This document shows, in pieces, positions 804 through 62,549 of a stretch of 64,000 bases of DNA. Below the pieces are notes generated by a model. That model saw only the letters and a program-made list of their open reading frames with translations, made no database searches and had not been told where the DNA came from. The position numbers were made by a program, and so were the translations under genes. Source of the DNA: Mobula birostris (Eukaryota); contig NC_092382.1 of NCBI RefSeq assembly GCF_030028105.1, positions 21,865,792-21,929,791 on the forward strand, read 5' to 3'. Position 1 is the first letter of the stretch. Each line of letters opens with the position of its first letter.

Positions 804-869
804 CTTTCAGCTCACTGAGAAACTCTAGTAAAAGTTGAGCGGGAATTGGTCGATGGGAGGGATCACAAC
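804..869 (-). CDS. NLR-family gene, coding exon 4 (linker after the death-fold domain; gene continues off the left edge)
   Basis: ttcatcAG acceptor; 66 nt, phase 1 to phase 1, (G)CDPSHRPIPAQLLLEFLSELK; GTAAGT donor. In frame with the upstream exon. Confidence 0.75.
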
Positions 870-967
870 CTGATGAATTTAAACAAATTGAGGAAATCAT
901 TTTTGTAAATTTGTAAAGTGTGCTGTGTTGTGATCCAAATTTAAATTAATTGCTGATATTATCTCAC

Positions 968-1139
968 CATATATCTGTATTTCCTTCAGTATTTTGTCCA
1001 AATTTGGGACACAGTTCTGCATTTTCACAAAGGTTTCCCACATCACCCTCCGGGCGCGGGAGCCCTTCTCCATCACCAGGCTCAGGAGGAGTTTAGAACT
1101 GTCCGCCCGCTCTCCCTTATCAGCGAGATCAGAGATTTT
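968..1139 (-). CDS. NLR-family gene, coding exon 3 (second half of CARD/death-fold-like domain)
   Basis: cttcacAG acceptor; 172 nt KISDLADKGERADSSKLLLSLVMEKGSRARRVMWETFVKMQNCVPNLDKILKEIQIY-G; GTGAG donor, phase 1. Recognised as the N-terminus typical of elasmobranch NACHT-LRR (NLRC3/NLRP3-like) proteins. Confidence 0.8.
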
Positions 1140-1905
1140 CTGTGAAGAGTAACGGTGAACATATTGGGGACTGACAGATTCACACAGAGAATGAGAAGTA
1201 AATAATGTGCTCTGTAACGGGATCACACTGAGCAGTCAAAATCCATAAATAATTCCTCACTGGATTAGATGGTGTAAACAGAAATCAGAAAATAATGATC
1301 ACTGATGAAGAAGTTAGGAAGATTTTTATAACAGAGTGAACAGTCTCAGAGAAGTTGCAGAGAAGATGTTGTGATTCATTTCCTCAGTCGGCCAGTGTCC
1401 AACATGACAGCGGATTACCGGCTGACACCTGACGCCTTTCCTTTGCCTTTTCTGGTGGAGGTTTATTCAGTGATTACACATTACAACATGGCAGTATTCC
1501 CCGATCCACACTGTTTGCAGTTACAGATTGTAACACAATCATCTCCACCCAGAACAGAACACACTCCAGCTCCTGTGGCATCCATGACTGATGCCCCAAT
1601 TCTCACTGACATCGTACCGTCACGCTGTACAGTCTTCCCAGAATGAAAGTTCCTACCATATTTCCACTTAAACTCCTTTACTGCTACCTCATACAATTGT
1701 TACCGGCTCCCCTCGCTCTGAACATTGAGCCGCCACTGGAGTGTTTACACCTTTTTTTAATCATTCCTTCAAATTCACAGTTTTAAGAATTATATATATT
1801 CATTTCTGATTTATTTTTATGCTTTATTATCCGCTGAGTCAGAGTTCCGACACCCATCAGTCCTGTGACGTGTGAACATTCAAACCCATTCTCCCTCCCA
1901 CTCAC

Positions 1906-2072
1906 CCGATGTTCCTCTCCGCTGAACTGATTCTTGGCCGTTAACGCCAGGCTCACTCCGTGCACCCCTCCTTCCATCGCCTGCTCCAGCCTGTCCCGGT
2001 AGAAATCCGTCAACTGCAGCAGCTGGAAATCGTCCCAGCTTGCCAGGAGCTCGGTGATCACTGAGCTCGGAC
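1906..2072 (-). CDS. NLR-family gene, coding exon 2 (first half of CARD/death-fold-like domain)
   Basis: cttcacAG acceptor; 167 nt (G)PSSVITELLASWDDFQLLQLTDFYRDRLEQAMEGGVHGVSLALTAKNQFSGEEHR; GTGAGT donor, phase 0. Phases match both neighbouring exons. Confidence 0.8.
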
Positions 2073-2155
2073 CTGTGAAGGAAAATGGCGAAAATTAAAG
2101 AATTTACCGACCCCATATTGGGCAGCAACTTTCTCTCTGGAACCTAAAGATCACC

Positions 2156-2470
2156 AAATAATAAAGGCAGCCGTTAGTCTTGCGAGACCATGGATCTGCG
2201 CCCGGAAAGTCTTCACACTCCAGGGCGCAGGTCTGGGCAAATTTGTATGGAAGACAGCAGTTGCCCATGCTGCAAGTCTCCCCTCTCCACGACACTGATG
2301 TTGTCCAAGGGAAGGGCATTAGGACCCATACAGCTTGGCAGCAGTGTCATCGCAGAGCAATGTGTGATTAGGTGTCTTGCTCAAGGACACAACACATTCC
2401 CTCGGCTGGGGCTCGAACTCACGACATTCAGATCGCTAGTCGAATGCCTTAACCACTTGGCCATGTGCCC
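2156..2470 (-). mobile_element. tRNA-derived SINE with CORE-like central domain
   Basis: Minus strand begins GGGCACATGGCCAAGTGGTTAAGGC (Pol III A box), then GAGTTCGAGCCC (B box), then a CORE-like TGTGTCCTTGAGCAAGACACCTAA motif. Confidence 0.75.
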
Positions 2471-2789
2471 ACAAGATCACCAAATACAGTCCGAATATAT
2501 ATACATTGGTTGGGTGGGGGGGGGGGGAGAGGAAAGGGCTTGGGCCGGGGGGGGTGCGTGTTGGGGGGCACCGGGGGTGTAGAAGGGGGTATAGTTCCAT
2601 CTGTGGAAGGCTGCTGTTTCGTGTCCCCGAGAATATACCTCCGTGTTTGGAAAGGACTCTGCCTATTGCTGGGAATATACAGTAGTAACCCATCACCATC
2701 ACTCTCCTGGTACTGCCCATCACCACTGCTTTGCCCTGGGTTACTTTCTGCAATTCCGGTCAACCCCTTCCTCAGAAAATCTCTGGGAT

Positions 2790-3060
2790 ATCTCACAAAT
2801 TTCTGGAGGTACTCAGCATGCCAGGCAGCATCTACGGTGGAGAATAAACAATGAACGTTTCGGGCCAAGGCCCTTCATCAGACTGGAAATGAAGGGGCAG
2901 AAATTCTGGATATTGTCAGATTACTTTCTATTCCTTGTGGTCCTGGTTTGAAACGTTAACTGTTTATTCCTCTCGATGGATGCTGCCTGACCTGCTGAGT
3001 CAGCCAAAATTTTGTGTGTCTTTGTGCTGCTCGAAACTTCCAGCATCTGCAAAATTCCTG
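2790..3060. mobile_element. Inverted pair of Penelope-like terminal (pLTR) fragments, with a hammerhead-like core on the minus strand at 2848-2886
   Basis: Minus: cagt-CTGATGA-agggccttggccc-GAAA-CGTT. Plus arm 2950-3060 carries the same tail (gatgctgcctgacctgctgag...ccagcatctgca) as the Penelope copy ending near 40990. Confidence 0.6.
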
Positions 3061-3291
3061 TGCTCTGGAACACCTCACTGTTTTAATGTGTATCTCAATC
3101 TTCTGGAGGAGCAGGAGCAGACGGTAATTGTACCCCTTCCACGTGTGACTGTGTTTCCCCCAGAGATGGTAACTCTCTCTCTCATCTCTCTGCTCAGTTT
3201 TCACAAATATTTTGTGACTTGCCGATATTGAATTAAATCCAGACACGTAGTCAAGGCAATATTTATAAATTAAAATAATTCGCCAACATAC

Positions 3292-3352
3292 CCGTGTCCT
3301 TTCCCGATGTTGACGTCACTGGAACTCCTCCACTGCTCATTCCGTTATCCAT
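3292..3352 (-). CDS. NLR-family gene, first coding exon
   Basis: aaaATGG start context; MDNGMSSGGVPVTSTSGKDT-G; GTATGT donor, phase 1, matching the phase-1 acceptor at 2072. Confidence 0.72.
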
Positions 3353-4859
3353 TTTGAGGACAGTTCTGGTCAGATTTTTCTGCTTTGTAACAAACAAGAT
3401 TAACAGAATATTCAGCTATTATTTGAGGTGTAAATGAAAGCACTTTAACTGAGTCGTTCTCTTCCAAACATCTTGACATGGCCTGACCTACCCGCGGCCA
3501 GCTACCCACAGCCACACAATGCCCATTTCCACTCTCTCCATGGATTGTACACTGGGCCAGGATTCTCCAGGGTATCTGCTCGCTATATTGTAGGCAATTC
3601 TGTTTTAGGAACCAATCCTGTGTCTTGGACCGGGAGTGATGTGTCCATGGAATGGTTAGACAGGCTGAGCAGACTGCTTTGGTCCTCCTACCACTGGTGG
3701 TGCTATGGTGAGTAATGGACAAATGGGACATCTATTCCTCTCGTCACTGAATTATACAGATTTCTCAGTCACACCTGATTCTCACCGTCTCATTTCAGTT
3801 TAACATCGCCTGACGTTGACGCTTCTGGCAATATGCGGTTTGAGTCTATATAGAAACCCTCTGACATCCTGAACAACGCAGAATCACCCATAACTTCGCG
3901 ACATTTTGTCCTGAAGCACTATAGTTTCTCCAGCAGGACCTTAAGAACATAATTAACGCCTGAACTCCGGTCAAGATTTCTTTGAGCATTCAGATGGCCA
4001 TTATCAGAGTTACATGACACTTGTTAAACACAATGTAGATCCGCCATGCATCCAAAAGAGCGAGCTGACAAAAACGCTTTTAAAATAAATAAACAAAATA
4101 CTAGAATTATTCAACAAAACAGACAGCCTGTTAATATTCCAGGTGGAAAACCCTGTATCAGAGCTGAGCCTGTGTGTGGGAGCCACGTATCTGTTCTCTA
4201 TCTGCATTGTATTCTGCGTTGTGTATTTATGATGCTTTTTATGGTAACTTGTCGCATCAGTGGCGACGTGGTAAACGCGAAGGGATCAGTTACATATTTA
4301 TGCTTTGTTCGGCGCAGTATTCAGCCGGGGGGCGTATCTTCTGCAATCATCGGCTCGTTTACGCTGAGGTTACACTTGTGTACTTGTACGCGTCTTTGCT
4401 TCAAGGTTGTACGTTTGCCGATCGCTAATAAAGGATCGAGTACATACCTTTGACTTTTGAAACAACCTTTATTGGAGCCGAGGGCGCATCATACAAGTAT
4501 ATCAAGTCCGTGGGGATCGCAGGCAATGACAACTTGGTTTGGTTAGAATTGGCCGCTACAGATGTTCCTCAGTTTGCTAATCATTTTAAATACTATCTGT
4601 TTATATGACACATTTCTTTTATATAGTTCTTTATTTTAACAGCGAAAAAGTTATCAAATTGGATGCCCTTCTCCTTGGATTTGCACGCCCAAAATCGCGG
4701 CAGTTCTGCGGACGAAAACGCCTTGTTAATGAGAGAGATCAAGGAGATTGGCCAGACTGATATAATCTGACAGGAAGGCGACAGTAACTCAAATAACCAT
4801 GCGCCCAACAGCGGGGTGCAGAAGGGCGTCACTGAACGCCGAACATTGATTTTGGACGG

Positions 4860-7800
4860 CGTAGAGCAGCAGGAGACCCCGAACACTCTCAGTGCCCACA
4901 CCATTAGGTGCAAGTTGTACAAAGTAAAATGCCCACTGAGAGCAGACTTCCATATTTACTTAAACTGCCGGCGAATTTTATTGCTGGGATTTTTATTTTA
5001 TCACTGACAGATATACACCGTCTTTGCCAATGAAAAAAAAATACACAGAATAAAAAAAAGAGACACGAATCCGTTAATCCACAATATTGAACTGGTAGAA
5101 ACACGAGAAATACTATCGTAATAAAACACCATAACATTTCCCCGTATAGTCTCTGTACTTACCTGTTGCTAGGCTCCTGATTCAGTTTCCTGCAAATCTG
5201 AGCATCTGAGTTTTATATCCCTACCAGTAAGTGAACACACACTGAGCAAAGTTCAGTTGATAACTCGCTCATAAACCTGAACTTCAGCCTATTCAGCTTG
5301 TAACGCCGCACCCTGTTCCACAACGCTTGTGTTAAACCACAGACAGACTCATTATGCTTGAACGCGTCTTTCTAACAAGTGGTCCGAGCCGGATTTAATA
5401 CTTAAGTGCAAGCGGTGCAAAGATTACGTTTCTCTCGAATATTTGAACTGTTTCGGAGAGGAAGAAAACCCGCATCCTGGTCCGCTCCACTGGTGCCGTC
5501 GCTTTGATTTATTGTTCACCTTAGCACCAGTTTATTGTCAGATGATAAACCTCAGCGACAGCTCAGGGCAAAGATCGCCCTGGTTTTATTGCACAGAGAC
5601 AGGGAAAGGAAGGGCGCTCTGAACTCTGATGGAATATTATGTATTTGGAATAATGTTCTCTTCTGAACAGGACGCATTCCCTTTCTCCAGATTTTACTGT
5701 GCCCCCTCTGCCTGGAGCTGACTTCAAGGTCACCCTGTTTATAAAGAGCCATTTTTAACAGTTGTCTGCAGTTGGACCATTACAGTAACTGAGCAACTGT
5801 GCCGAAATAAGCATCTCCCAGAGATAACAAATGGCCAAAGTCGACAGCGATATAAGGACACCCTTCCCCTTCAGTTTATTGCTCACTGACTGGAAACAGG
5901 TTACCATGTCACAGCAGCAATCGTATGAAATTATGATCATTTCCCGCCGGCGAATTTACCTGGCAAACCATTTACTTCACAGATACATCAACCAGCATCG
6001 CATTTATTTACAAATACTTCTACCGTTCCTCCTCAGAGAACGATGGGGAAAAAAAACATTAAATTCACTGCGTTTCTTATCTCTCAGTGTGCTCTGCTGG
6101 TATGTTGAATTAGTAACCGGACATTCACCCCCTCAGTCCTGTTCCGCCATTCACAACAGGACTGGGATCTCAGTGGCACATCCCTGCGACCGCCTGGAAT
6201 AATTCACTGCCTTGTCATTCTCGAATCTGTGCGCTGCGGAATTAAACATATTGGGAAAAAAAAACTCTGCGTGTCGTTTCCCTTGAAAACTGTTCCACCT
6301 CATCTATCTTCACCTGCTTCAGCTTCCCCGGGAACAGCAACTGATAGTATGTATACGGTAGAAAAGTTAGAAATACTTCCGTAACGAATAGGGTTATTAG
6401 AGCACCATAACACAGCCCAGTACAGTTCCTGTTCTTACCTGGTGCTGGACTCCCGAGTCTGTTCTCAGTGAATCCGAGCATCTGAATGTTATGTCCCTAA
6501 CAGTAAGTGATCACACCCTGAGCAATGATCAGTTGATAACTCGCTCATAAACCTGAACTTCAGCTTATTCAGCGTGTCACGCCGCACCCTGTTCCACAAC
6601 GCTTGTAGTGAAAAACGCAAAGACTCATTTTCTTTGAATGAGCCTTTCTAACATGTGGTTCGAGCCAAAAGTACGACTTCAGTGCGCCATGCAATGATTG
6701 CCTTTGTCTGGAAAATTTGATCTGCCCCAGGGAGGGAGCCCAACCCGCATCCTGGATCGGTTCCGCTGGTGTCGTCGCTTTAATTTATTGTTCACCTCGG
6801 GACCAGTTTATTGTCAGATTATAAACTCCAGAGACAGCTCAGGGCAAAGATCGCTGTGGGTTTGTTACTCACAGAGAGGAGAAGGAAGGGCGCCGTCAAC
6901 TCTTGTAAAATACTATGCATTTGGAGTATTTTTTGCTTTTTTTTAACACTGGGCATTCTGTAAGTGCTGCCTGAAGGAGGTAAGTCAATGTCAGCTTGTT
7001 TAGAAAGCCAGTTTTAACAGAAGGCCGCAATTGTACCATTACAGTAATGGGCCGATTGGGGGGCAACTGTGCCGAGATAACCACCTCCCAGAGATAACAA
7101 CCGGTGAAATTCAACAGTAAGATAGAACGCCCTTCCCTTTCAGTTTATTACTCACTTTCTGGAAACAAGCTACCATGTCTCAGTAGAATCATAAGAAATT
7201 ATGATTATTTCCCGATGGCGAATTTGCCTGGCATCGCACTTATTTTACAAATACATCAACCGTTCCTCGTCTGAGATCGATGGAGAAACACCAGACATTA
7301 AATTCACTTTTTCTCTGATCTCTCAGAGTGCGCTGCTGGCATGTTTAAATAGTTATAAGACATTCGCTCCCTCTGTCCTGTTCCGCCATTCTTTATTATC
7401 ACAGGCGCACTGTGATCTCAGTGACACATCCCTGCGAACGCCTGGAACAAACCATTCCCTTGACTGTCAATAATCTGTGTTCAGTGGAATTAAACACATT
7501 GAAAGAAAGCTCTGCTTCTCTTTCCCTTTGCGGAAGAGAATTCCAAAGACACACTAGTTCCACCTCAGTAAAATAACCTCATCTATCTTCACCTGTTTCA
7601 TCTCCCCCTACAGCAGCAAACATGTTTTCCACATTCCTGTCTAGACTCCGCGTGATGTTCAGTGTCCCCAGCAAGGACTCAATTCATTTATCTAACCACT
7701 AGTGGATAAAATCTCCCCTCCTTCATCTCAGTAACAGCGAATACAATAAAATCCCCGTCTTTATCGAATACCAGCCAATACAGCGCAGTGGTCAGCATTG

Positions 7801-9470
7801 AAGCGGACGGGGAACGCAGCAGAATCCCCTGGACGTGCACTCAGTGGCCACATTATTAGGTACAGGAAGTTCATAGCAAAGTGCCTAATGAGTGCAGAAT
7901 TTGCTATTTTAATCTACGGCCAGTGAGAATTACCACAATATTTGTTAATATAAATATCACTGCCAGATCTACCTGGTCTTAGCTAAAAAAAAAACACATA
8001 CAAAATAATCGAGCACACAGATCCGTACAGCCGCGCAATTTCAATGACAATACTGATATAGTAGAAATATTAGTAATACTGTCGTTACAAGTGTGCTTAT
8101 TAAAATACCATAACACTGCCGAATACAGTCCATGTTCCTACCTGATGCAGAACTCATGGGTCTGGTTTCAGGGGATCCGAGTATCTGAATTTTATGGACT
8201 CTAACAGTAAGTGAACACACCCTGAGCAATGTTCAGTTGGTAACACGCTCATAAACCTGAACTTCACGCTATTCGGCATGTAACGCCACACCTTCCTCCA
8301 CAACGATTTTGTTAAACCACACAAAGATTCACCTTGCTTGAATGAGTCTTTCTAACTTGTGGTCCGACCCAGAATTAATACTTCAGTGCGAGAAATTTTA
8401 CCACCTCCAGAGAGGAATCACTACTCGCATCCCGGTTCCGTTCGGTTGGTGCCGTCGCTTTCAGTTATTGTTCACCTTGGGCCCAGTTTATTGTCAGATT
8501 ATAAACTCCAGCGACAGCTCAGGGCAAAGATCGCTGTGGGTTTATTGCACAGAGACAGCAGAAGGAAGGGCGCTCTCAAATCTGATGAAACATTATAAAT
8601 TTGGAATAATGTTCTCTCTTGAACAGTGGACAATCCCTTTCCCAGATTTAACTGTGCCCCCGTAGCCTGGACCTGCTCTGATTTTAAATTGGCCCATTTA
8701 AATACGATCGTTAACAGTTGTCCGCAGTTGTAACATTGTCGGGAGCGGCTGTGCCAAGATTACCATCTCCCAGAGATAACTACCAGTCAAAGTCGTTAAC
8801 AAGATAAGGATACCCTTCTCCTTCAGTTTATTACTCACTGACTGGAAACAAATTGCAGGATCACAGCGCCATCATATGAGATTTGGATCATTTCCCGCTG
8901 GTGAATTTGTCTGACAGCGTATTTACTTTGCGGAAACATCAACGGTTTCTCCTCATTGACTAATAGAAAACGATGTAAACATTAATTACACAGGGCCTGT
9001 TTGTCTGAGATTGATGCTGGCCCTGTTGACTTAGTAGCAGGGCGTTCGGACTCTCAGTTCTGTTCCGCTGTTCTCTGATTCTATGATCACGACTGAACTG
9101 TGATCTCAGCGGCCCAAACCGGCCACAGCCTGCAACACTTCACTCACTTGCCAGTCAAGAATATGTGCTCTGCGGAATTAAACACGAAAAAAAACTCTGC
9201 TTCTCTTTTCTTTTGAAGAAGAGAATTCAAAGACACATTAGCCCCACTTCGTAAAAATAATCTCACCTAGCTTCACCAGTTTCAGCTCCCCTTACAGCAG
9301 CAAACGTATTCTCCACATTCCTGTCAAGATGTCTCATCATGTTGTATAAAACCTGTCACCGCTCTACTCATTTATCTGAACAAGCAGATAAAGTCTCCTC
9401 TCATTCATCTAAATAGCAGCGAATACCATCGTCTTCCATCATTTATCTAATACCTGCGAATGCAGTGAAA
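4860..9470. repeat. Three diverged tandem copies of a ~1.5-kb unit upstream of the NLR gene (~4860-6340, ~6340-7800, ~7800-9470)
   Basis: Colinear shared blocks, e.g. cgctcataaacctgaacttca (~5266, 6543, 8246), ccagtttattgtcagat (~5528, 6803, 8483), ctcccagagataac (~5815, 7086, 8767), cagtttatt (~5872, 7141, 8824). Confidence 0.9.
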
Positions 9471-10329
9471 AATAATCCGACTTTCATCCAGTAACAACGC
9501 AAAAAAAAAACCAAAAGAGATTGAACTCTGTTTCTACTGAATCCGCAAAAACATGTTGAGGTTCACAAACATGTCCTCACAAGAAAATTCAAACAAACCA
9601 GCTGCCAATGTACTAATTACCCTTTGAACTGCGACAACCGTTTGACATAAAGAAAACTGCACCGTATATGCGTTGACCCACATTAGATCTCAGCAACAGT
9701 CTCTATAATGGAATAATCACCTCTTTTCCACCGCTTAATTTTCATTGTCAATGTGGGTAGATTTCCGAATTACCCACCCACCTACGTACTGAAGGGTAGC
9801 CGGGATGGACTGATAGTGACGGCCCCAGCATTGAAGGAGTAAATAACGCGACCCCCAATCCCTCCGTCCGGGAACACTGAAGCACAGAATGTGGAAGGGT
9901 CCGACTCCGGCTGCAAGAAGCATAGAGCTGAAGTCGATTCGGGGCGATGAGGAGCTTTCCCCCTAGTGTGATACTGCACGGAAAGTACAGCGCTTCCAAT
10001 AACATATTCATCCGCATTGAGTCCCCGCTGGAAACGCTCAGAAAGTTGATCCAATGTGCTGAAGGGATCCGTTAATTCCCTTGAGAGCGAATTTTGCACA
10101 GTTCCACTCGTCAATAATCCTATAATTTCTGTCTTCAGAGTTCAGAAAGGTGCCAAGATCGACGGTGTAAAAGGAGAATGAGGCAACGTGACCAGCATTG
10201 GAAGTAAAAGACAAAAATAAAGCAAAAGTAAGAGCTTACCATATAACCAAAATTAGTGAGAAACGAAAATATTGGGCTGATTTGAAAAACAACTGTAACA
10301 GTCAACTAAAAAGTAATAAAGAGAGGAGA

Positions 10330-10700
10330 ATAATAAGAAATTTGCAGGTAAGACAGCCGGTAATATAAAAGAGGATACTTTTGTTTTGAGATATATGAAG
10401 AGTAATAGAGAGGCAAGAGTGGGTATCAGATCGCTGGAGAGGTAGCATTGGCGGACAAAGAAATGGTGGATGAACTTACAAAGTATTTTGTATCAGTCAT
10501 CACGGTGGAAATCACTAGGGATATGTCCAAATTCTAACGTATCTGCAATTGCCTTGACTAAGAACGATGTGACTGGAAGCTGTGACGTTCGAAGTTATAA
10601 AACTCACCTGAACCAGATGGACTTCACCCGAGGTTTCTGCAAAGGGCGGCTGAAGAGATTGTGGAAGCATTCGCAGTGAATTTTCAAGGAAAATCATCAA
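10330..10700 (+). mobile_element. CR1-type LINE ORF2 fragment
   Basis: Degenerate RYMKSNREARVG...DKEMVDEL..YFVSV segment, also present at ~38070-38400 and ~38820-38965. Confidence 0.65.
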
Positions 10701-10939
10701 TAATTACTGTAATCGGGTTTCTGAGCATTCGCTGGTCCACATTCATTCCGTATTGTTAAGTAATTAAAGCTCATCTCTTATTCAAACGAGGCGAAATGAA
10801 CTTATTCTGTGTTTACTTTACTATTTCCTTGACGCCATAGACCTCCGGGTCAAACTGTTTTGTCTATTCTATTGAGCCTTAGTGTCCCGTCTGCAATAGA
10901 AAGTTCGGTACTGTACTGTTGTTATCGTTGTCGTTACGT

Positions 10940-11275
10940 GCCTTGTTGTATGAGGTTGCGACGATGGTCTTTCCAGGACCGTGATTGCTCTTGGCAATTT
11001 TTTCTAAGAAGTGGTTTGCCGTTGCTATTGTGTTTACTAGACGGGTGCTAATATCAATACTCGTCAGAGAGTGTATGCCTGAGTATAACCAGGACTTGTG
11101 ATATTTGCCAGCTGCTCATAGAACAATCCAGTATCTTTTCTCATGCCTTCGAGGGACCTGATTGTGGGGAGTGGGGGGTCGAGCTAACCAGGTTCTGCGC
11201 CTTGTTCTGGGGTGAACTGCAGTCTAGCGGAGAGGAGGAGATTTTAAGAACTCGTTTGGTCGTAACGTATTCCCT
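10940..11275 (-). mobile_element. RTE-related SINE/non-autonomous element
   Basis: Minus strand contains gcaacggcaaaccacttcttagaaaaaattgcc, the same RTE 5' motif seen in the LINE at ~41770. Confidence 0.5.
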
Positions 11276-12463: not shown

Positions 12464-12634
12464 NNNNNNNNNNNNNNNNNNNNNNNNNNNNNNNNNNNNN
12501 NNNNNNNNNNNNNNNNNNNNNNNNNNNNNNNNNNNNNNNNNNNNNNNNNNNNNNNNNNNNNNNNNNNNNNNNNNNNNNNNNNNNNNNNNNNNNNNNNNNN
12601 NNNNNNNNNNNNNNNNNNNNNNNNNNNNNNNNNN
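12464..12634. other. Assembly gap (171 N)
   Basis: Run of N. Confidence 1.
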
Positions 12635-14167: not shown

Positions 14168-14203
<36 letters not shown>

Positions 14204-41400: not shown

Positions 41401-41409
41401 AAGCAATGG

Positions 41410-52114: not shown

Positions 52115-52150
52115 AGGGGGGAGGGAAGGAGAGGGAGAGAGTGAGTGAGC

Positions 52151-52200
<50 letters not shown>

Positions 52201-52275
52201 CAGAGAGACAGAACAAGAGAGATTGTGCGAGAGGGAGAGAGACAGAGATGAGAGAGAGTGACAGTGAGAGAGAAA
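52115..52275. repeat. (GA)n-rich microsatellite in the GPCR intron
   Basis: Direct inspection. Confidence 0.9.
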
Positions 52276-52669
52276 ATTCAGCTACGGTGGCAGTTGGTAC
52301 AATCCGCAACGCTCCCACAAATCGTCCTGTTGTACTGCTCCTTCACCAAAAGTTAGGTCACAAAATACATTTCAATCTGCAACAATCCCGGTATCAGATT
52401 TACGCTGACAGTGGTGAACAGCGGAGAGGACTGATCTCCCTGAATTTCAGCAGCATCGTCTACGATGAACTCTGGGGGTGGGATGGGGGGGTCGGGGTGA
52501 CAGTGAACTTGACCCTGCATCAGCGTGTGGAGCGGAGACGAACCGTTCAGCAGCGGTAGTCTGCCGTGTGTCCGCGCTGGGTCGGTTTCGCCGGGAAACA
52601 ACACCCAGTGAAATGACTGTTAATAGAAGTCCGTCGCTAACATTTCAGACAGAGGATGTGTCGACTTAC

Positions 52670-52739
52670 CCGGAACACCGAAAGCTGCGAGAATAGGGTA
52701 AAATACAATCGTCACATGCCGGATTGTTGGTAGAGCCAT
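52670..52739 (-). CDS. GPR139-like orphan GPCR, exon 1
   Basis: aaaATGG start context; MALPTIRHVTIVFYPILAAFGVP-G; GTAAGT donor, phase 1. Completes the TM1 motif GVPANLL. Confidence 0.9.
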
Positions 52740-52813
52740 TTTCGGGTGTTGTACAAAATGCACCGCACTGCTCGCACTGAGAGCCACTCGCCTGCGTTCT
52801 GACCTCGCTGCCC

Positions 52814-52820
52814 TTTTATA
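52814..52820 (-). promoter_or_regulatory. TATA box of the intact GPCR gene
   Basis: TATAAAA about 75 nt upstream of the ATG. Confidence 0.6.
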
Positions 52821-53649
52821 CATTAATCTATACCCCGGTGAAAAAAACACAGAGGCTGCACAATAACTCGAGTTAGTTACAGTCAGTTAACAAACAAGGC
52901 GCCGTTTCTCTCGGCACCGCGGGGAATACTTAAAGCTCAGTCCAGAACACCGTCTAGTAAAGTAGACAATCAGAAAGTTTTTAAAGCTGTTCCACGCACT
53001 CCGGATTGAAATGCCAGTCATGACCTATCACCTGCTTATATTAACACACACAAAACGCTGCGTTACACCAGCATTTTACGTATGTTGCTTGAATTTCCAG
53101 CATCTGCAGATTCTCTCGTATCTACTTCTATTGTTGCCTTCACATTCATTTTATCTGATATTAATTGTATGATATCTCGCTCCATAGCTCTCAAAGCAAA
53201 TGTTAGCTCTGAGCGATCTCACAATTTATCCTGAAACCAACCCCACATTATATGAACATTACAGCGGGCCTGCACAGTCTGCGTTATTTGCCCAATCTAA
53301 TTGTAGACCACACGGATTCCATCACCTTACTCCAAATTTGTCCATACTTCTTCAGTCACAGTGAACTCAGCAGCCCGTTGTGCGGGCATGATTGATAAGG
53401 GCAACACGAAATGTATTTAAGTAGTCCCTGCTTTTTGACATTGAAGGTTAAAAATCTCTATAATAACATCTGTGACAAATATTCCCGATACCGAATGTGC
53501 ATCGGCTTTTCCGGCTCCGAATAAGGTCTCAGTAAATGGCGGCGCATATTATGGATCACCACTGGCTCCTCATTTCCATCATCAGCATCGCAACCAGCAT
53601 CACGTTTACTGTCTCCAGTAAATGCCGTGAAATGTGTGTACAGTGCAAT

Positions 53650-56600
53650 ACGTCCAAAAGCACCGAAATAAACAATAAATAAATAAACAAGAGAGGCAGG
53701 GCTAAAAGAATGCAAACAGTGACGTAGTATTGTTTAATTTAGAAAAGTTTAGAAATAATTTAGAAAGCCGATGCTTGAAGAGAATAAGCTCAACTAAGAT
53801 ATGCGAGGCTTAGCGAGTATTTTGGTGATACTGACGACAACTCCCTGAACTTTTACATAGCCATGGACAAGGATATGAGCGGAAAGTATCGGGACGTGTT
53901 TAATTTGGGGAGTACCCATCATGACGCTATGAGGCAGGAACCTGGGGATGTAAACCAGGAACGGATGTGTTCAGGGAAATGCCCAACAGAAATGTGCAGG
54001 TTGTTCCGGGTGCCCTTGCTTGGCGTTCTGGGTAGGTTTGTCCCGCTGAGGTGGGGAAAGGACGCTAACTCGAAGGGGTCACGGCTGTGACGAGATGTGG
54101 AGCATCCATTCCCGAGGAAGAAAGAAGCATGCTTAAGGCTTAAGAAGCAGAGATCATCAGAGAGGGTTCTGGAGAGTTACGAGGTCGCCAAGAAGGAGCC
54201 AAACTGTGGACATAAGTGTTAGGAGTGTGCATTGGCGAGGAGGAGAACAGGAGGATGAGAGGGTAGAAGCGATGAAGGATACAAGAGGAACGAAACATGC
54301 GCCTGGAGTCGGGGGCGGTAGTGGATGTCGGTAATGAACGCTTTGCTTCAGTATTCACCAGTGCAGAGCTTCCTGACAGATCAGATGCCGCGGACCAGCA
54401 CTATTCAGCCAGGACTCCGCAGACCACAGAGTAGGAATCCCAGAGGGAACTTGATGAATGTGGGGGCAGCGTGAACAGCCTGATATGCTGGAATATGTCA
54501 AGGTTTCGAAGGAAGATGCATTGGAGAATTTGAAGAGCATGAGGATAGATAAGACCCTGAGACCGAAAGGAATATCGCACATGATACTAATGGATGCGTG
54601 GGAAGAGATTTCCTCGGCTTTGGTGATGACATGTGCGTCCTCAGTGGCCACAGGAATAGGTGCGAAGCATCAGACGGTGGGAGGTTCTGACAAATATCAT
54701 TATTGTGTTCAAGAAAGGTACCTGGATTAACCCTGGGAATGATAGACCAATTACTCTTACTTCAGAGACGGGCAAATTTGGGGGGAATTTCTGGAGATGA
54801 CGTTCAGGAGCTCCACAAGTCTCGGCACATCAGCCTGTAATTGGAACTCAGACCTCCTCAGTCATCGTACCCGAACGGTGAAACTAAGCAAGTGCACATC
54901 AAACCCCCAAAACTCCAGCACAGGCGCCCCGCAGTGGCGTGTACAGAGACACGTCTCTACTCTCTCTTTTCGCCCATGACTGCACTCCCGCTCCTGCTAC
55001 AAACTCAGTCATCATAGTGGCAGAGGACACAACAGTGACTGGCCTCATCACAAACACTGATGAATCTGCATATAGAGAGGATGAACCTCAATATTCGACC
55101 AGCACTAAGAAGACAATAGAAATGGTAATCGACTTCAAAATTACAAGAAGTGTCGAAAGCCCCCTATCCCTGCATGGTGAAGTAATGGGGAGCGTTCAGA
55201 GGTTCAAGTTTTTGGGGATGAATATCACCGAGGAGTTCTCTCGGCCCATCAGCAAAACCTCGTCAGCAACGAAAGCACAACAGTGACTATACTATATGAG
55301 GTGATTAGGGAGAGCTGATCTGTCTCAGAAATAGCTGGTCAACATTTTAAGTGCGGTAGAGAGCAGACTGACACACGGAATGGCAGTGCTGTGCTCCAGA
55401 TGCAGCGAGACAGATTGCAAACCACTCAAAGGGTTGATTAGGACGGCTCCGATCATCACCGGGTCTCAACTACCGGACTGGGAGACAATCTAACTCCGGA
55501 TGCTCACGGCAACAGTAAAAACCCATCCGATCCCTGACACTGTCTGGTTAATTTCCTGCCACCTGGTAGGAGATAGGGAAACCTCTTCGCCATGCTATTA
55601 GACGGAAATATCTTCATCCGAGGGCCGTTGTTGTGCTGAATAATGCAACACCCTGCCTTGCCAATGGCCTTTGAGTGCCACTGAAATCATTTGTTTCTGT
55701 AAATACAGTTTTTTTTCTTGTTTGAATGAATCCGGACCGCACGCATTGCAAATATCTGTTTTGTGCGGTCTGGAGCAGCGCCGCCATTTTGTTGTCTTCA
55801 GCCATGACAATACAGTTCCATTGTATTCTATTGATTTGCCGAAGCACAGTCTGATTAGGGATAGTCGACAGGACTTTCAGAAGAGCAGAACATGTCTCAC
55901 GAAGATGATTGAATACCGTGAGGAATGGGCGAGACATATTGTTTAAAACCGAGGATTGGAGGTTGTGGATATGGATTTTAGTATGGTATGTTCGCCGAAC
56001 GATAAGCTCATTCAGGAAGGTGGGAGGCACCAGTTCCAGGGAAAATTGCCCGTGTGGATTCAGAATTGGTTTGGCCGCAAAAGGCAGAGGCTGCGGTGGT
56101 CTTCATTAGACGGGGGAATGAGGGTAAGAGCCGTGAAATAATTTTGTAGCCTTAGAAAACCCTGCTGAATCCGCACTTCCTGTCTTCTGTTCCGTTCCGG
56201 TGGTCACATTATAGGAAGGATGTCGAATCGTTAGAGATGGAGCAGAGGAGTTTCACTGCGATGACACCAGGATTATGAAGAGTGGTTGACAGAGCTAGGG
56301 TTTTGCTTTAGGAGGACAGAAAATGAGCTGTGATGTTGGGAAGGTGTACACAATGATAAGAGACAGCGGTCGATTGTACAGCAAGAGATACTGTATGTTT
56401 CCCAGGCGGAAATGGCGAATACATGGAAGTATTGTGGTGATGGCGGAAGCATTTCTTTTACACACTGAGGGGTGTGTACGTGTGACGCTTGTAATCAGCG
56501 GCGTGGCGTCATTTCCGTTATGGACATTCCACAGACTCTCAGATAGGCGGGTGGATGAATGGGAAAGATGAGGGCGATGTAGTCGGAAAGGGTCAGATTG

Positions 56601-56930
56601 ATCTTGGAATGGACTAAAACATGGGCACAACCGAGTGCCTACGATGCCATATTGCTGTATGCACTGTACGATCATGTGTTAGTGAAACGTTCAGGGTGTG
56701 TCTTGTGACCAGGTACCTCCTTACTGATGTCAGCAATGCAAAGTGTTCTGGATCTTCAGGGTCCTCAATGGTGGACGCCGTCTTCTTCAGACATTGCTTT
56801 TTGAATATGGCGGGGAACCTGATGCCTTTGCTGGAGCTGACTGACTTTACAACGCGTTGTGGCTTTTTCCGATCTTCTGCGTTAGCGCCTCCACACCTGA
56901 CCGGATGCAATAGCCCGCACACTGTCCGGG
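53650..56930. mobile_element. Mosaic of old CR1 and Rex/Babar LINE fragments
   Basis: LENLKSMRIDK..PKGI (CR1); HDC.....NSVII.AEDTTVTGLITNTDESAYRE (Rex-type RT, 54939-55286); WIQNWF (CR1); DRKKPQRVVK (Rex, minus strand). Confidence 0.65.
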
Positions 56931-57829
56931 GTACATCACTAATCTTCTCAAACCTTTCCGTAATTGCATCAATTCTTCATCTCCAACTCATCACCTACAG
57001 AGCTGTGGACACACGGGAAATTGAAGCTCCTCGGCCTTTCCTCTGCTGACCCGTCGATGAAGACGTACCTGTTCACAGTTCAAAATTCAAAGTGCATTTA
57101 TTTTCAAGGTAGACTTTTTCAACATTTAGATTCGGCTCCTTACTAATAACCACGAAACAAAGAAAACCAATAGGACCGGTTAAGAAAGAAAATCGTCAAA
57201 CACCCGACGCGCAGAGAATAAAATACAAAAAGACCAAATCTGCAAACGATAAACTTCACCAAATAACATTCAGAACTGAAGTTCGGAAAATTGAGTCCCC
57301 CCACGGTTAGGAAGCCAGGTATTGCAACAACCGATTCGAGAACGTATCCCTGCCTCTGTGGGACGTAGCGCCGAGAAAACGTCGCGGAGCACCGAGCCGA
57401 AGCGTCCCGTCCATCGTTCAATCTGCTCCGTCGTTGAAAACGTTTGAACATCGCGTCGTTCCTCGCTTTCGGACCCGGGCCGTGCTGTTTCGTTATTCCC
57501 TCGGGCCTGGCCTCACCGCCTCGATTCTGCTCGTTCCAATCTTTCCAATTCGGCCCCACTTTAAAATCGATCAAATCTCGGATCTGTCCTCGCTGTCGGG
57601 CACGGGGCCGGTCTCTGCCTCGCCTCCGCTCGCCTCTGTTCCGCCACATCGAATCGCCTCTATGTCGGCGCCGGCAATTGGCTCGTTCTCGGATCTCCGA
57701 CCCGGACCCCGACGGCTGGATTCGGCTTTCAAGGCAGCACTGTCCAGCGCTTTCGAGCTTTCAGATCACACCGCATTTATGGAATGGTGACATACATCAA
57801 CAGTGAATTTCAACACCTCTTTTTTTGCA

Positions 57830-58986
57830 TTGGATTTGATGAGTGTCCTACTGTCAACACTCGGGGAAAGTGGACTTGGTCACCATTGACCAGAACGTAG
57901 CTTGGTCAGACACGTCATGATCAATAAGAAGAGATCAGATGCTGTGGAACGTTTTGATTTGGATGGAGGCCGAGATCGGCAAACTCTGGTCAAGTGTCCT
58001 TTCTTTCGGCAAGTAAAGCGGAATGAGTCTCGGTGTCAACAGTCTGTAGGCTTCCGGTGAAATTCAGCGCAAAGGTAACATCGGAAACCCCGGAGTATAA
58101 TTCTTTTGATTCTTAGCTGGGGACACTTTGTTAGCGTCAGTACAATCTGCGGCAGTTGTAGGTGATGGAGACGTCACCGCTCTTTGTACGTGGGACTCTT
58201 GCGACAAAACTGCATTTTTATCTGCCGTTTGCATGCCATTTGCGATATCAAAAGCTGACTGAAGTGAGAGCTCCGATTCTGCCGATAAGCGACGCTGAAT
58301 GCGAACATCACGCCGACGACTGAGCGATCTCGTATCGTTACTTCTCGAACATCAACGTAAACACAAAGTTCAGTCAGTTTTCTTCATTCAGCAACAAACG
58401 TTGCTGTTGGTTCGTTTTCTAACTGAAAACGAGAGCTGAATCTAACGCGCTGCACAATATAGGATTGTACAATATAGGACAGTTTAGGATTGTAATGAGA
58501 TCAAATCTCAGAAGTCCCACATACGATTTCGAAGAGAGCAAATCGGGATTCATCAAACCTCGGACGATATTGTGTGTTTCCGGACCGCAACAACCAAGCA
58601 AGATACTATCCTTTTGATTGGGCTCAGTGATGTTGTTTGCCGCGAATAACTTGCCAAACATTTCAATGTAAATCTTCCCGTGGTCTGTGAATCATAATAT
58701 TCCTGAGCTTGTCCAATGATGGTCATTGTTCAAATGTGAACATCGATTCCAAAAGAGCGAGTGTCACACATCCCATCCCCGTCACCACTGTTTTACTAAG
58801 AACGTTAATCGTGTCCATTGCAGCTGAACAGGTCTGCTTGACTCGTAATCACGCAGAAAAAAAACATGTTCACACGCACAGAATTTGCAGGTCAAACGCG
58901 AATCGATAGATGGAGAAACCGGCGACATCGACAGATCCCGTGATGTCAGATGACAGACTAATAACGCCCACACAGTGGATAGGACA
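57830..58986 (-). mobile_element. Gypsy LTR retrotransposon 5' remnant (LTR, tRNA-Ser-type PBS, decayed gag/protease)
   Basis: LTR end ...AAAACA at 58789; PBS TGGTGACGGGGATGGGAT at 58770-58787; gag MTIIGQ.../YIEMFGKLFAANNITE...ILLGCCGPETHNIVRGLMNP....KSY. Outer boundaries approximate. Confidence 0.75.
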
Positions 58987-58994
58987 CTCCACTC

Positions 58995-59265
58995 TCACCT
59001 CTATCTCTTCCTCCCTTTTAACCCCATTCTCCCTCTGCCTCCCCATCCCTCTTCCTCTACCGCTGTCTCAGCATTCTCTCCCACCCTTCTCACCCTCTCT
59101 CTCCCTTCTCTCTCACCTTCCATCTCGCCACCCATCTACTGTATCTCTCGATCTCTCGCTATCCCCCCGTCTCTGCCTCTCGGTCTATCCCTCTCTCTAC
59201 TCTACCGGCCGAGTTCCTCCCAACATCTCCTTCTCCAACCTTTCCCCGCTCCCCTCTCTCTCTCA
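58995..59265. repeat. CT-rich low-complexity tract
   Basis: Direct inspection. Confidence 0.85.
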
Positions 59266-59900
59266 GCGTGAGTGTGGTCACGGTGACTTTGCTGGTAAGC
59301 TGTTTCGTGTCGCTGATGGTGTCCCGGGTTCTTGCAAATGGGGATTTCAGCAACCCCTCCAGTTTCCAGCGTCGCAGTCCCGTTGGAAATGAACGGAAAG
59401 AGATCTCATTGAGAGTGCAAATGGTGGGAGTGGGTGGGAAGGGATGGAGTCCACGGGGGGTGCGGATGATGGTAGTGAATGAGAAGGGGTGCGATCCCAA
59501 TGGGAGTTCAAGTTCGGACAATCCTGCCGCTCCCCTCTCACCCTCCCTGTGATGACAGGTTGCAGCTGGTCACCACACCGTGGGAGAAGAGATTTCCCTT
59601 GAATTTCATGGAATCATAGAAATCTACAGCACGTTACAGGCCCTTCGGCCCGCAGTGTTGTGCCGACCATGTTACCTACTCCAGAAACTGCCACGAATTA
59701 CCCTCCCGCATCGCCCTCTATTTTTCTAGGCTCCATGTACTATCTAACATCTATGTAATATCTAAGAGTCTCTGAAAAGACCCTATTGTATCCGCCTCTA
59801 CCACTGTCGCTGGCAGTGCATTCCACACACACACCACTTAGCTCTGACATCTGCTCTGCACCTACTTCCAAACAAGTTAAAACTCTGCCCCCTCGTGTTC

Positions 59901-60537
59901 TGCCGGTTCGGCGGGAGGGGCGAGTGCAGGTTCCGCGCGTGCAGTCCTTCGGTGAAAAACGATATCGTATCCGTTAAATAGGGGCCGTGGACAATTCTGA
60001 TTTGATGGAGAGGGGCGTGAAAGTACAGAGGAACATCTGGACAAATTTCTGAAACGCCCGTTCGCTGCTGTCGTTACTGCGCGATCGTGAATCTTCCAGA
60101 GGGAAGGCCTCAAAATCCACGGCTGTGCCTGCTGTTGGCGACCGAGATTGAAGTCAAATCGCTCGGATAGACATGACACTCAGTACTCGGTGTCGGAAAG
60201 CTGATCGGAGGCTCGAAGTTTTCGGACGACTCGGAGTCGGACTGTGGTTGGCATGGCAGGGAGAGTTTTTTCTTCTTTCTCCCGTCTGCGTGAGATGTGG
60301 GACATTTGAGAGACTTTGAACTTTTTACTGTGCTCATGGACTTCTTCATCAAGTTATGGTATTGTTGCACTGTTGTAACTATATGTTATAATTATGTGAT
60401 TTTGTTAGATTTTTCAGTCTTGTTCTGTCCTGTGTTTTGTGATATCACACTGGAGGAAATATTGTATCATTTCTTAATGCATGCATTACTAAATGACAAT
60501 AAGAGAGGACTGTGTGTCTTCATAATCTAAATCTAAA
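59901..60537 (+). mobile_element. Retroelement 3' end inserted only in duplication copy B
   Basis: Absent at the homologous site near 24580-24590; ends in an aatctaaatctaa tail. Confidence 0.6.
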
Positions 60538-61532
60538 GCCCTAGGAACAAGCCTGTAGCTATCCACACGACCAATGTCTCTCATCATCCTGTACACCTGC
60601 ATGAATTTCCTGCATGTTTCTCTCCAGGCTGAATAAGACGATAAGCTCACTGTGCTTTTGACGTCCTTCAGGGCTCTGGATGAAGTTGGTTAAACTCCTT
60701 CCTCCCCGCTCTTTTCAACGTCTTGTATCATTTTCACTCATTTCAAAGGACTGTGTCTCAGACAGCTGGGTTGTTGCAATGCACCTCTAAAGTCTGACAG
60801 CAGACTAGTGAGTGAATCATCGATGGAGTAGAGTCAGAAATCAGCCTGAATCAGGGCTTTGGGGCTCCTGAAAGAGATGGGACCTAGAGTTTACCAGGAG
60901 GAGCAGGAAGAGGAATCAGACTGGTAGGATGTGGCTGCAAATGAAAGATCAGAAACATTTTCAAACAGTTTGAAAAAAAAAGGTGGTTAATTTCTGCAGA
61001 ATACTGGAGGAAATCAACAGATCTGGCTGCAAATGCGGAGAGGAATAAATAGACAATATTTATGCTGAGCCCCTTCAGCATGTCTAGACTGTGTACTCCT
61101 CTGCTTTGTAGCTGCCTGAACTGCGGAGTTCCTCCAGCATTTTGTGTGCGCGTCTCTGTACCGTATTTCCTGCAACTGCAGAATCTCTTGTGTTTTATAT
61201 CTACACTTGTAAAAGGATTGTACTTTGGCATTAGATACACGTTGATATTGAGTATACTGTTTATGGGAAACGCTTTCTGCGCTAAAACAGCTGCTGAATT
61301 TTCTATGCACACACACACAAAAACTGAGCTACGAACATGGAACTGGTGCTTGCAGAAACTTTTAATGGCACCGTGATTACCCATAAATCCCTGCGTTACA
61401 AATATCGCCGTCGCCGAAGCACCGATCAAATGCACAGGCGTCAGCGTTGTGACGTTCCCGAATATCACGCATGCGCGCAGTGCACAAAGGCCTCAGAAGA
61501 GCAGCGGCAGGTAAGAGCGACTCTCCGGGGGT

Positions 61533-62190
61533 AGGGGAGAAGGGAGAGAGGGTGAGGGGGGGGAGAAGGGAGAGAGGGTGAGGGGGGGAGAAGGGAGAGA
61601 GGGTGAGGGGGGGAGAAGGGAGAGAGGGTGAGGGGGGGGAGAAGGGAGAGAGGGTGAGGGGGGGAGAGAAGGGAGAGAGGGTGGGGGGGCGGAGAAGGGA
61701 GAGAGGGTGGGGGGGAGAAGGGAGAGAGGGTGAGGGGGGAGAAGGGAGAGAGGGTGAGGGGGGGGAGAAGGGAGAGAGGGTGAGGGGGGGGAGAAGGGAG
61801 AGAGGGTGAGGGGGGGGAGAAGGGAGAGAGGGTGAGGGGGGAGAAGGGAGAGAGGGTGAGGGGGGGGAGAAGGGAGAGAGGGTGAGGGGGGGAGAAGGGA
61901 GAGAGGGTGAGGGGGGAGAAGGGAGAGAGGGTGAGGGGGGGAGAAGGGAGAGAGGGTGAGGGGGGGAGAAGGGAGAGAGGGTGAGGGGGGGGAGAAGGGA
62001 GAGAGGGTGAGGGGTGGAGAGAGGGTGAGGGGTGGAGAGAGGGTGAGGGGGGGAGAAGGGAGAGAGGGTGAGGGGGGGGAGAAGGGAGAGAGGGTGAGGG
62101 GGGGAGAAGGGAGAGAGGGTGAGGGGGGGAGAAGGGAGAGAGGGTGAGGGGGGGAAGAAGGGAGAGAGGGTGAGGGGGGCAGGGGGAGGG
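61533..62190 (+). repeat. G-rich minisatellite, unit ~GAGAAGGGAGAGAGGGTGA(G)6-8, roughly 25 copies
   Basis: Direct inspection. Almost pure purine on the + strand. Confidence 0.95.
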
Positions 62191-62549
62191 GGGGTTGGGG
62201 GGTGTTTCAACACTGACTTCGGGACAATTACTGTGACTCCAGACACCGTGAGCCGCAATCCCGGGACAGTCCTGCTCTCTTCCCTCTCTCTCAGCCCCAC
62301 GATCCGTACACGGGCCCCGGGGAGCTTCCGGCTGATGAGGGAATGGGAACCGATGGATCTCTCAGACAAAGCTGAGCTCCAACTGTCTAAATGCAAGGAT
62401 CGGGAACCCGGAGAAAGGGAACAAAATCTTTTACATCAGCTGTTGAGAAAATCACCTTTGTTCTGCCTCCAATCACAAACAAGAGAAAATCTTCAGAGAG
62501 GGCACAGTTTTAAGGTGCTTGTTAGTAGGTACGAGGGAGATATCAGGGG

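What the first reader, a model, noticed from the sequence alone, without database searches (positions are those of the whole stretch)
804..62492. Interdigitated NLR / orphan GPR139-like GPCR / effector-less ZNF cluster under birth-and-death evolution
Seen: three unrelated multigene families alternate within 64 kb in the order NLR(-), GPCR pseudogene(+), ZNF relic(+), ZNF(+), GPCR(-), ZNF promoter(+). Live and dead members sit side by side with local duplications in dense TE debris. Known: zebrafish chromosome 4q holds intermixed NLR and C2H2-ZNF expansions, and GPR139 is normally a single conserved gene. Inference: this is a chondrichthyan counterpart of such a fast-evolving defence region, with an added receptor arm made of an expanded orphan GPCR family. 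Sensors (NLR, GPCR) and DNA-binding TE-recognition arrays (ZNF) may be co-amplified and possibly co-regulated. This is the best candidate for an undescribed system here, but one window cannot show function.
Basis: partly seen in the sequence, partly recalled or inferred. Interest (0 to 1): 0.8.

Follow-up and report, generated by a model that had tools for sequence, protein, structure and literature searches.

The report
Three-family duplicated gene arm in rays
This stretch of a ray's genome is one of many recent copies of a block holding immune sensor, cell-surface receptor and zinc-finger genes, part of a chromosome region of about 90 million bases packed with these three families; they are copied together, but nothing here shows that they work together.

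Summary
The gene order is real. The window is one copy of a mosaic segmental duplication inside a ~90 Mb domain (G000:C17, 0-90 Mb). That domain holds 136 of 142 scored NLR hits and 140 of 150 scored ZNF hits. Most of the window recurs, inverted, at two sites 9 and 20 Mb away (92-99%). The receptor pseudogene has 17 copies with the same lesions; 13 of the 16 others lie head-to-head with an NLR (0.4 expected). So co-amplification is shown, and a dead gene rode along. The receptors are not GPR139: the true orthologue sits alone on C11, and the family is 19-29% identical to it. The family motif occurs 1,360 times, also in clusters where no NLR was sampled. NLR and receptor homologues share a chromosome or scaffold in 6 of 10 other elasmobranchs. 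Co-regulation is untested. Closest precedents: zebrafish 4q (NLR+ZNF) and mouse chr7 (Nlrp4+V1r). Nine paper searches found no description of this domain or receptor expansion. An earlier scan note saw the receptor family, not the domain, in another shark-type genome. Verdict: new variant of a known kind.

The parts
804..3352 (-). NLR gene, four 5' coding exons (3352-3292, 2072-1906, 1139-968, 869-804); CARD-like N-terminus; NACHT and LRR exons lie left of the window
   Evidence: CARD-like is a lead only (atlas 0.89 on the homologue P0121)
4888..9465 (.). Three ~1.4 kb copies (70-74% alike) of a non-coding element found upstream of NLR genes; probably promoter plus untranslated first exon (splice donor on the minus strand)
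   Evidence: 57 of 57 rows on C17; no codon periodicity; role inferred
15168..18888 (+). Orphan class A GPCR pseudogene, two exons; two frameshifts and one stop shared by 17 genomic copies
23451..23900 (+). Decayed C2H2-ZNF exon (leader plus 2-3 broken fingers)
   Evidence: same position behind intact receptor paralogues at 84% identity
24592..25784 (+). ZNF promoter module and non-coding first exon (CpG-rich, CGCATGCGC motif, donor near 25469) of the ZNF gene at 34.7 kb
   Evidence: near-identical copies 4-10 kb upstream of the identical-leader ZNFs; NRF1 reading of the motif is recalled
28736..31447 (-). LINE retroelement ORF2 remains (endonuclease and reverse transcriptase pieces); largest of 15 retroelement pieces
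34756..36434 (+). C2H2-ZNF last exon: decayed-finger leader, conserved TGA (35133), ATG 35172, 13 fingers, stop 36362; no effector domain in frame
50319..52739 (-). Intact orphan class A GPCR, 326 aa, two exons, TATA box ~80 bases upstream
60537..62497 (+). Second ZNF promoter module with a 26-bp array (61534-62179) behind its first exon; gene body at window+69.0-70.2 kb
2123..64000 (.). Segmental duplication block, repeated inverted at C17:1.42-1.49 Mb and C17:31.18-31.25 Mb (the latter also covers 1-2123 and the NACHT exon)

Best explanation
The window is a tile of an old, repeat-rich, unstable chromosomal domain (about C17:0-90 Mb) in which blocks of tens of kb are copied to distant sites in either orientation and then patched by recombination between paralogues (shown: copying and mosaic identity; inferred: the recombination mechanism). 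NLR, C2H2-ZNF and orphan GPCR genes are neighbours because they descend from the same blocks, so dead genes are copied along with live ones (shown). Selection acts on each family on its own: NLR NACHT exons and one receptor subfamily stay open under moderate purifying selection, receptor extracellular loops change fastest, and ZNF arrays gain, lose and reorder whole fingers (shown). The likely jobs are intracellular sensing (NLR), repeat or TE binding (ZNF) and detection of varied small or peptide ligands by a large chemosensory or immune receptor repertoire (GPCR) (inferred from relatives). The domain is the elasmobranch parallel of zebrafish 4q and mouse proximal chr7, not a demonstrated functional unit.
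For: Duplicated block. Pseudogene: 17 copies at 98-100%; 16 of 16 other copies carry the same lesions; 13 of 16 head-to-head with an NLR, 0.42 expected, maximum 4 in 5,000 shuffles. Intact GPCR with a convergent ZNF 14-18 kb away: 6 of 29, 0.09 expected. Domain: 136 of 142 NACHT hits, 140 of 150 ZNF-leader hits, 66 of 71 GPCR hits at 75% or more on C17; 95 of the first 100 of 277 NACHT-motif matches and 96 of the first 100 of 122 ZNF-motif matches on C17. Mosaic: window and its two block-mates are mostly 98-99.95% alike between 4 and 48 kb, but the receptor exon is 96.6-96.8% like theirs and 99.2% like a copy at 29.7 Mb. Selection: 0 stops in 14 NACHT exons, pN/pS 0.40; 0 stops in 37 receptor exons, pN/pS 0.47-0.55; loops 19 N/3 S against 33/25 elsewhere, Fisher p 0.018; same-leader ZNFs have 12, 12, 12, 13, 14, 15 fingers. 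Age: NLR and receptor homologues share a contig length in 6 of 10 other species.
Against: Hit lists are the best-scoring part only (142 of 424, 150 of 1,943, 121 of 4,961 candidates), ranked by likeness to this window, so they favour C17. The unbiased tile contrast is weak: NLR or ZNF in 5 of 18 C17 tiles against 1 of 20 on C24/C33, p 0.08. Four species share no contig (1-2 proteins each). No cross-species test for ZNFs succeeded. The one block end inspected has no long homology, so not all ends fit homologous recombination. Long persistence of NLR-receptor linkage is more than pure hitch-hiking needs. Order and orientation of blocks in such a region may be mis-scaffolded.
Confidence: 0.72

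Rival explanations
1. Coupled defence system: NLRs, receptors and ZNFs are kept together because they are co-regulated (shared enhancers or one chromatin state) and act in one response.
For: NLR-receptor synteny in 6 of 10 other elasmobranchs, for example 19 of 19 NLR and 20 of 27 receptor clusters in Heterodontus, 10 of 11 and 6 of 6 in S. canicula. Fixed head-to-head NLR-receptor layout with a conserved non-coding element between them. Receptor-then-ZNF order kept at 84% identity.
Against: The head-to-head receptor is dead in 17 of 17 copies. The intact subfamily avoids NLRs (0 of 20 within 50 kb). Receptor clusters elsewhere gave no NLR in 20 tiles. Promoter types look different. No expression data were obtained.
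Confidence: 0.15
2. Independent expansions that only settled in the same repeat-rich, gene-poor sink; adjacency is incidental.
For: Receptors also form clusters on C3, C5, C6, C9, C12, C24, C33. Repeats are dense.
Against: Fixed distance and orientation between paralogous neighbours and whole-block copies at 92-99% show joint copying. This may still describe how the families first met.
Confidence: 0.08
3. Assembly artefact: haplotypes or repeats duplicated and scattered by scaffolding.
For: Intergenic identity reaches 99.9%. Many related batoid proteins lie on small scaffolds. Read depth was not tested.
Against: 17 copies exceed two haplotypes. Copies differ by insertions, finger number and receptor allele. 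Other species' assemblies show the same linkage.
Confidence: 0.05

Closest known systems
Zebrafish chromosome 4 long arm: NLR-B30.2 genes interspersed with multi-ZNF (FiNZ-ZNF) genes (10.1101/027151; 10.1101/2022.11.29.518450; passages read)
   Same: Most of an expanded NLR family on one chromosomal stretch, irregularly mixed with multi-finger C2H2 genes; signs of exchange between paralogues.
   Different: No B30.2 in 12 NLR proteins scanned; no N-terminal domain in frame in most ZNFs; best 5S rRNA arrays on C3, not C17; a third family of receptors is mixed in; fixed neighbour modules recur.
Mouse proximal chromosome 7: Nlrp4 and V1r genes co-duplicated in segmental duplications (PMC2735741; passages read)
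   Same: NLR plus GPCR copied together over tens of Mb; pseudogenes share a lesion that predates their duplication.
   Different: Receptor is a 7tm_1 class A orphan, not V1R; the scale is far larger (at least 182 NLR loci on C17); the dead passenger here is the receptor.
GPR139/GPR142 and their protostome sister group (MIP, FMRFamide-type, proctolin receptors; PMC8557429; passages read)
   Same: Family profile's best solved-structure match is human GPR139 (61 bits against 53 for CCR1); atlas neighbours are FMRFamide/Srw-type receptors.
   Different: True GPR139 orthologue is separate (545 bits); family members are 19-29% identical to it. Possible link to the gar/coelacanth 'GPR210' orphans listed under GPR139/142 in PMC6504862: not tested.
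NLRP-related expansion reported in whale shark (PMC8455134; passages read)
   Same: Chondrichthyan-expanded NACHT-LRR family; database names are 'NLRP3-like'.
   Different: That paper counts 43 NLRs in all; the passages I read give no genomic context; here 277 motif matches. Membership in that clade was not tested by a tree.

Membership tests
Zebrafish-4q-type domain | Most members of an expanded NLR family on one chromosomal stretch | tested here: met
   136 of 142 scored hits; 95 of first 100 of 277 motif matches; at least 182 loci on C17. Contigs after C17 are not visible in the motif listing.
Zebrafish-4q-type domain | Multi-finger C2H2 genes interspersed among the NLRs | tested here: met
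Zebrafish-4q-type domain | NLR-B30.2 architecture | tested here: not met
   No PRY/SPRY family in 12 of 12 proteins scanned (11 homologues and this gene's NACHT exon)
Zebrafish-4q-type domain | 5S rRNA clusters on the same arm | tested here: not met
   47 scored matches: 45 on C3, 2 on C4333; only the best were scored
Zebrafish-4q-type domain | Heterochromatic, late replicating, low recombination | not testable with these tools
   none
FiNZ-ZNF / KRAB-ZNF | N-terminal effector exon in frame with the finger array | tested here: not met
   In-frame stop just before the array in 12 of 13 evaluable arrays, ATG 12 codons later in 11 of these. One copy on C4 has an open leader, so an ancestral upstream exon is not excluded.
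FiNZ-ZNF / KRAB-ZNF | Binds and silences transposable elements | not testable with these tools
   Finger shuffling fits; binding not tested
GPR139 | One-to-one orthology with human GPR139 | tested here: not met
   Orthologue at C11:126.6 Mb; window receptor 30% over 115 aa to it; long branch
Mouse Nlrp4-V1r type duplicon | NLR and GPCR copied in one block; lesion older than the copies | tested here: met
Mouse Nlrp4-V1r type duplicon | Receptor is a vomeronasal type 1 receptor | tested here: not met
   Only 7tm_1 matched in Pfam
NLR (NACHT-LRR) | NACHT, winged helix, HD2, LRR in one open frame | tested here: met
NLR (NACHT-LRR) | N-terminal death-fold domain | tested here: inconclusive
   No Pfam hit; atlas CARD clusters at 0.88-0.89, a lead only

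The most novel reading that the evidence does not exclude
Sharks and rays have kept, since before their split, a chromosomal domain that amplifies NLRs, effector-less ZNFs and an unrecognised receptor family of about a thousand genes as one regulated defence or sensing unit. The receptors would be a missing large receptor repertoire of cartilaginous fishes, and the domain might share descent with zebrafish 4q or mouse proximal chr7.
Probability: 0.15. Interest if true: 0.85.

Novelty: new variant of a known kind. Interest (0 to 1): 0.62.

Why it matters
Cartilaginous fishes are described as poor in GPCRs and olfactory receptors, with 43 NLRs in whale shark (PMC8455134, passages). Here one motif finds 1,360 loci of a single orphan receptor family and another finds 277 NLR loci. 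Automatic annotation hides the receptors under the name of a single-copy brain receptor. If most are live (5 of 6 whole copies in evenly spaced tiles), this would be among the largest vertebrate GPCR families (comparison from my own knowledge), and asking where it is expressed is now a direct test. The domain is also a third case, beside zebrafish and mouse, of NLRs expanding among ZNF or receptor genes, which makes 'convergence or common descent' testable by synteny.

Tried and rejected
Expression: no RNA holder listed; contigs of 4 of 7 listed runs laid on the intact receptor covered intron and promoter with no splice joint, so they look like DNA and say nothing on expression. Exact look-up of two window proteins: not in the collection (the receptor query included intron-derived residues). 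ZNF cross-species search with the leader region: 9 proteins, none a close batoid match, uninformative. tRNA and Rfam scans of the window: 0. Triplicated 1.4 kb unit as a decayed exon: no codon periodicity, rejected. Single-sequence PDB search ranked orexin receptor first and GPR139 low; the profile search reversed this. Identity dips at genes as a sign of positive selection: rejected for the receptor, whose coding exon is more conserved than its 3' flank (96-99% against 93-96%); replacement from another paralogue fits better. Loop pN/pS of 1.8 rests on 3 synonymous changes and falls to 0.78 with all 37 sequences: not claimed as positive selection. SINE-mediated block end: the one junction read lies outside the SINE and has no long homology. 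Tree: GPR139 and the outgroup are long branches that meet, so the root is unsure. Literature: searches found no paper on this domain or receptor expansion; catshark (PMC11979771) and zebra shark (10.1101/2022.10.17.512540) main texts have 0 occurrences of GPR139, NLR, NACHT or zinc finger. No supplements were read; gene-family tables in genome papers could bear on novelty. Scan look-ups by place and by sequence: nothing.
Full report
Source. The window is G000:C17:21,865,792-21,929,791 in a 4.0 Gb genome. The closest named proteins are from Mobula, then other batoids, then sharks, so it is a ray.

Observation. The order NLR(-), receptor pseudogene(+), ZNF relic(+), ZNF(+), receptor(-), ZNF promoter(+) is correct. 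Only the NLR's 5' exons are inside the window. Its NACHT exon is a 599-aa open frame 5.9-7.7 kb to the left, with LRR exons beyond it; Pfam gives NACHT, winged helix and HD2. The 70 kb of flank hold two more receptors on the left (one open, one broken) and two more ZNF arrays on the right. The ZNF frame starts at an ATG 12 codons after an in-frame stop. Of 14 arrays examined, 13 could be judged: 12 have that stop and 11 of the 12 have the ATG; one copy on C4 is open. 'Effector-less' therefore holds for this subfamily.

The domain. Searches of the own genome score only the best candidates, ranked by likeness to this window. Of those scored, 136 of 142 NACHT hits, 140 of 150 ZNF-leader hits and 66 of the 71 receptor hits at 75% identity or more lie on C17 between 0 and 90 Mb. 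Exact motif counts are whole: 277 for the NACHT motif, 122 for a ZNF-leader motif, 1,360 for the receptor motif, with 0 for each reversed control. Only the first 100 places are listed, in contig order: 95, 96 and 13 of them are on C17, and contigs after C17 are not seen. At least 182 NLR loci are on C17. Ninety Mb is about 2% of the genome. Two sub-domains (0-32 Mb and 33-90 Mb) carry different subfamilies. Evenly spaced 10 kb tiles give a weaker but unbiased view. C17: 18 readable of 20, with receptor in 3, ZNF in 4, NLR in 1. C24 and C33 receptor clusters: 20 tiles, receptor in 4, ZNF relic in 1, NLR in 0. Fisher p for NLR or ZNF is 0.08.

Co-amplification. Window 2,123 to beyond its right end recurs inverted at C17:1.42-1.49 Mb (97-99%), and -11 kb to +67 kb recurs inverted at C17:31.18-31.25 Mb (92-99%), with the same gene order. 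The pseudogene has 17 copies at 98-100%. All 16 others carry the same insertion, deletion and stop; 3 of 4 paralogues at 84% are open. Thirteen of the 16 lie head-to-head with an NLR 20-32 kb away (0.42 expected; maximum 4 in 5,000 shuffles). Six of 29 close paralogues of the intact receptor have a convergent ZNF 14-18 kb away (0.09 expected; the ZNF list is 140 of 1,943 candidates). In the second sub-domain 10 of 36 have a ZNF 5-9 kb downstream (0.10 expected; bin chosen after seeing the data). The intact subfamily has an NLR within 50 kb at 0 of 20 sites below 20 Mb (9.6 expected) (all). These copies share descent, so the numbers show joint copying and not joint selection.

Turnover and selection. 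The window and its two block-mates are mostly 98-99.95% alike from 4 to 48 kb, with dips at the ZNF array and the receptor. The receptor exon is 96.6-96.8% like its block-mates' but 99.2% like a copy at 29.7 Mb, which points to exchange between paralogues (inference). No stops occur in 29 young and 8 older receptor exons; pN/pS is 0.55 and 0.47. These were picked from the top of a protein search, which favours open copies; in the tiles, 5 of 6 whole copies are open. Extracellular loops carry 19 non-synonymous and 3 synonymous changes against 33 and 25 elsewhere (p 0.018); this may be relaxed constraint. Fourteen NACHT exons have no stop, pN/pS 0.40; 139 of 142 hits have no stop in the matched part. 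Six ZNFs with near-identical leaders have 12, 12, 12, 13, 14 and 15 fingers in reshuffled order; a seventh is broken.

The receptor. Database names say 'probable GPR139' for most of the 120 listed homologues, which come from sharks and rays where named. A family profile ranks human GPR139 first among solved structures, but at 61 bits. A motif I recalled from GPR139 found two loci: an olfactory-type receptor (my reading) and a true orthologue at C11:126.6 Mb scoring 545 bits. Family members are 19-29% identical to it. The ray genome holds several deep subfamilies, one grouping with shark proteins (94/94, not starred). Atlas neighbours are FMRFamide/Srw-type receptors. PMC8557429 (passages) places GPR139/142 as sister to protostome receptors for aromatic-ended peptides, so small aromatic or peptide ligands are my guess. 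Function is untested.

Other species. Shared contigs: Heterodontus 19 of 19 NLR and 20 of 27 receptor clusters; S. canicula 10 of 11 and 6 of 6; S. torazame 5 of 5 and 6 of 6; Cetorhinus 8 of 10 and 1 of 1; Mustelus 3 of 26 and 1 of 1; Heptranchias 3 of 25 and 8 of 22 (shared scaffolds of 9.3 and 4.7 Mb). None shared in Carcharodon, Chiloscyllium, Pristis and Rhinoraja (1-2 proteins each). Species lacking one of the two families or a contig length in these lists were left out. Same chromosome does not mean adjacent, but two database gene models join a receptor piece to a NACHT (P0381, S. torazame; P0125, Hypanus) and one joins NACHT to four fingers (P0210). ZNF linkage outside this genome was not established.

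Mechanism and rivals. Best reading (0.72): a long-lived unstable domain amplifies mixed blocks; each family is then filtered separately. A coupled, co-regulated system (0.15) has the old linkage and fixed layouts in its favour, and against it the dead passenger, the NLR-free receptor clusters, and a TATA-type receptor promoter beside CpG-rich ZNF promoters. Chance settling (0.08) and assembly artefact (0.05) fit poorly. No expression evidence was obtained.

What is known. Zebrafish 4q mixes NLR-B30.2 and multi-ZNF genes (10.1101/027151, passages); those ZNFs carry a FiNZ domain and repress young TEs (10.1101/2022.11.29.518450, passages). Mouse Nlrp4 and V1r genes were co-duplicated, with pseudogenes sharing a lesion older than their copies (PMC2735741, passages). 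Whale shark has an NLRP-related expansion and cartilaginous fishes are called poor in GPCRs (PMC8455134, passages and one section). PMC6504862 (passages) lists unnamed gar and coelacanth orphans near GPR139/142. The ray domain works like these but fails their specific marks (B30.2, FiNZ, 5S arrays, V1R). Nine searches of an open-access library found no account of the domain or of the receptor expansion; subscription papers and supplements were not seen. One earlier scan note (e1-7939187) reports hundreds of such receptors in another shark-type genome.

Verdict. Real, and much larger than the window. New variant of a known kind of genome domain. The receptor family's size and mistaken name are the most surprising part. 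Interest 0.62.

Noticed in passing
window 61534-62179: 26-bp array behind the ZNF first exon; present in the 1.4 Mb block copy, collapsed in the 31.2 Mb copy and absent from the paralogous promoter at 25.5 kb.
   Followed up: partly
window 25493-25784 and 62205-62497: A ~290-base box behind the ZNF first exon is 94.5% alike between the two promoters while the promoters are 78-83% alike; it has a strong splice-acceptor-like tract and a 38-codon frame.
   Followed up: no
G000:C4:0-2 Mb: The tip of C4 also mixes all three families (13 receptor, 3 NLR, several ZNF matches). L123 there has an open ZNF leader.
   Followed up: partly
P0381, P0125, P0210: Database gene models joining a receptor piece or zinc fingers to a NACHT domain; probably merged neighbours, a real fusion not excluded.
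   Followed up: no
L005, L007, L068, L069 (behind ZNF arrays): Gypsy-like gag or integrase ORF pieces lie within a few kb downstream of several ZNF arrays; naming is from my own reading of the translations.
   Followed up: no
window 3352-3292: The NLR starts MDNG where the homologue P0121 has MGNG at the aligned place; a possible myristoylation site (recalled motif) differs between paralogues.
   Followed up: no
L001 (about 1-5.5 kb left of the window): A multi-kb minisatellite fills the NLR intron in front of the NACHT exon; it is only 74-88% alike in the 31.2 Mb copy.
   Followed up: no
P0139, P0145: Caecilian and newt NLRs are 47-50% identical to this NACHT exon, so the family extends to amphibians.
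   Followed up: no
C17:0-20 Mb: 106 NLR loci are never closer than 47 kb (median 154 kb) and neighbours share a strand in 51 of 105 cases: dispersed, not tandem.
   Followed up: partly
window 25937-26407: 157-aa frame with a cysteine pattern that I read, from memory, as a DNA-transposon relic; no Pfam hit.
   Followed up: no
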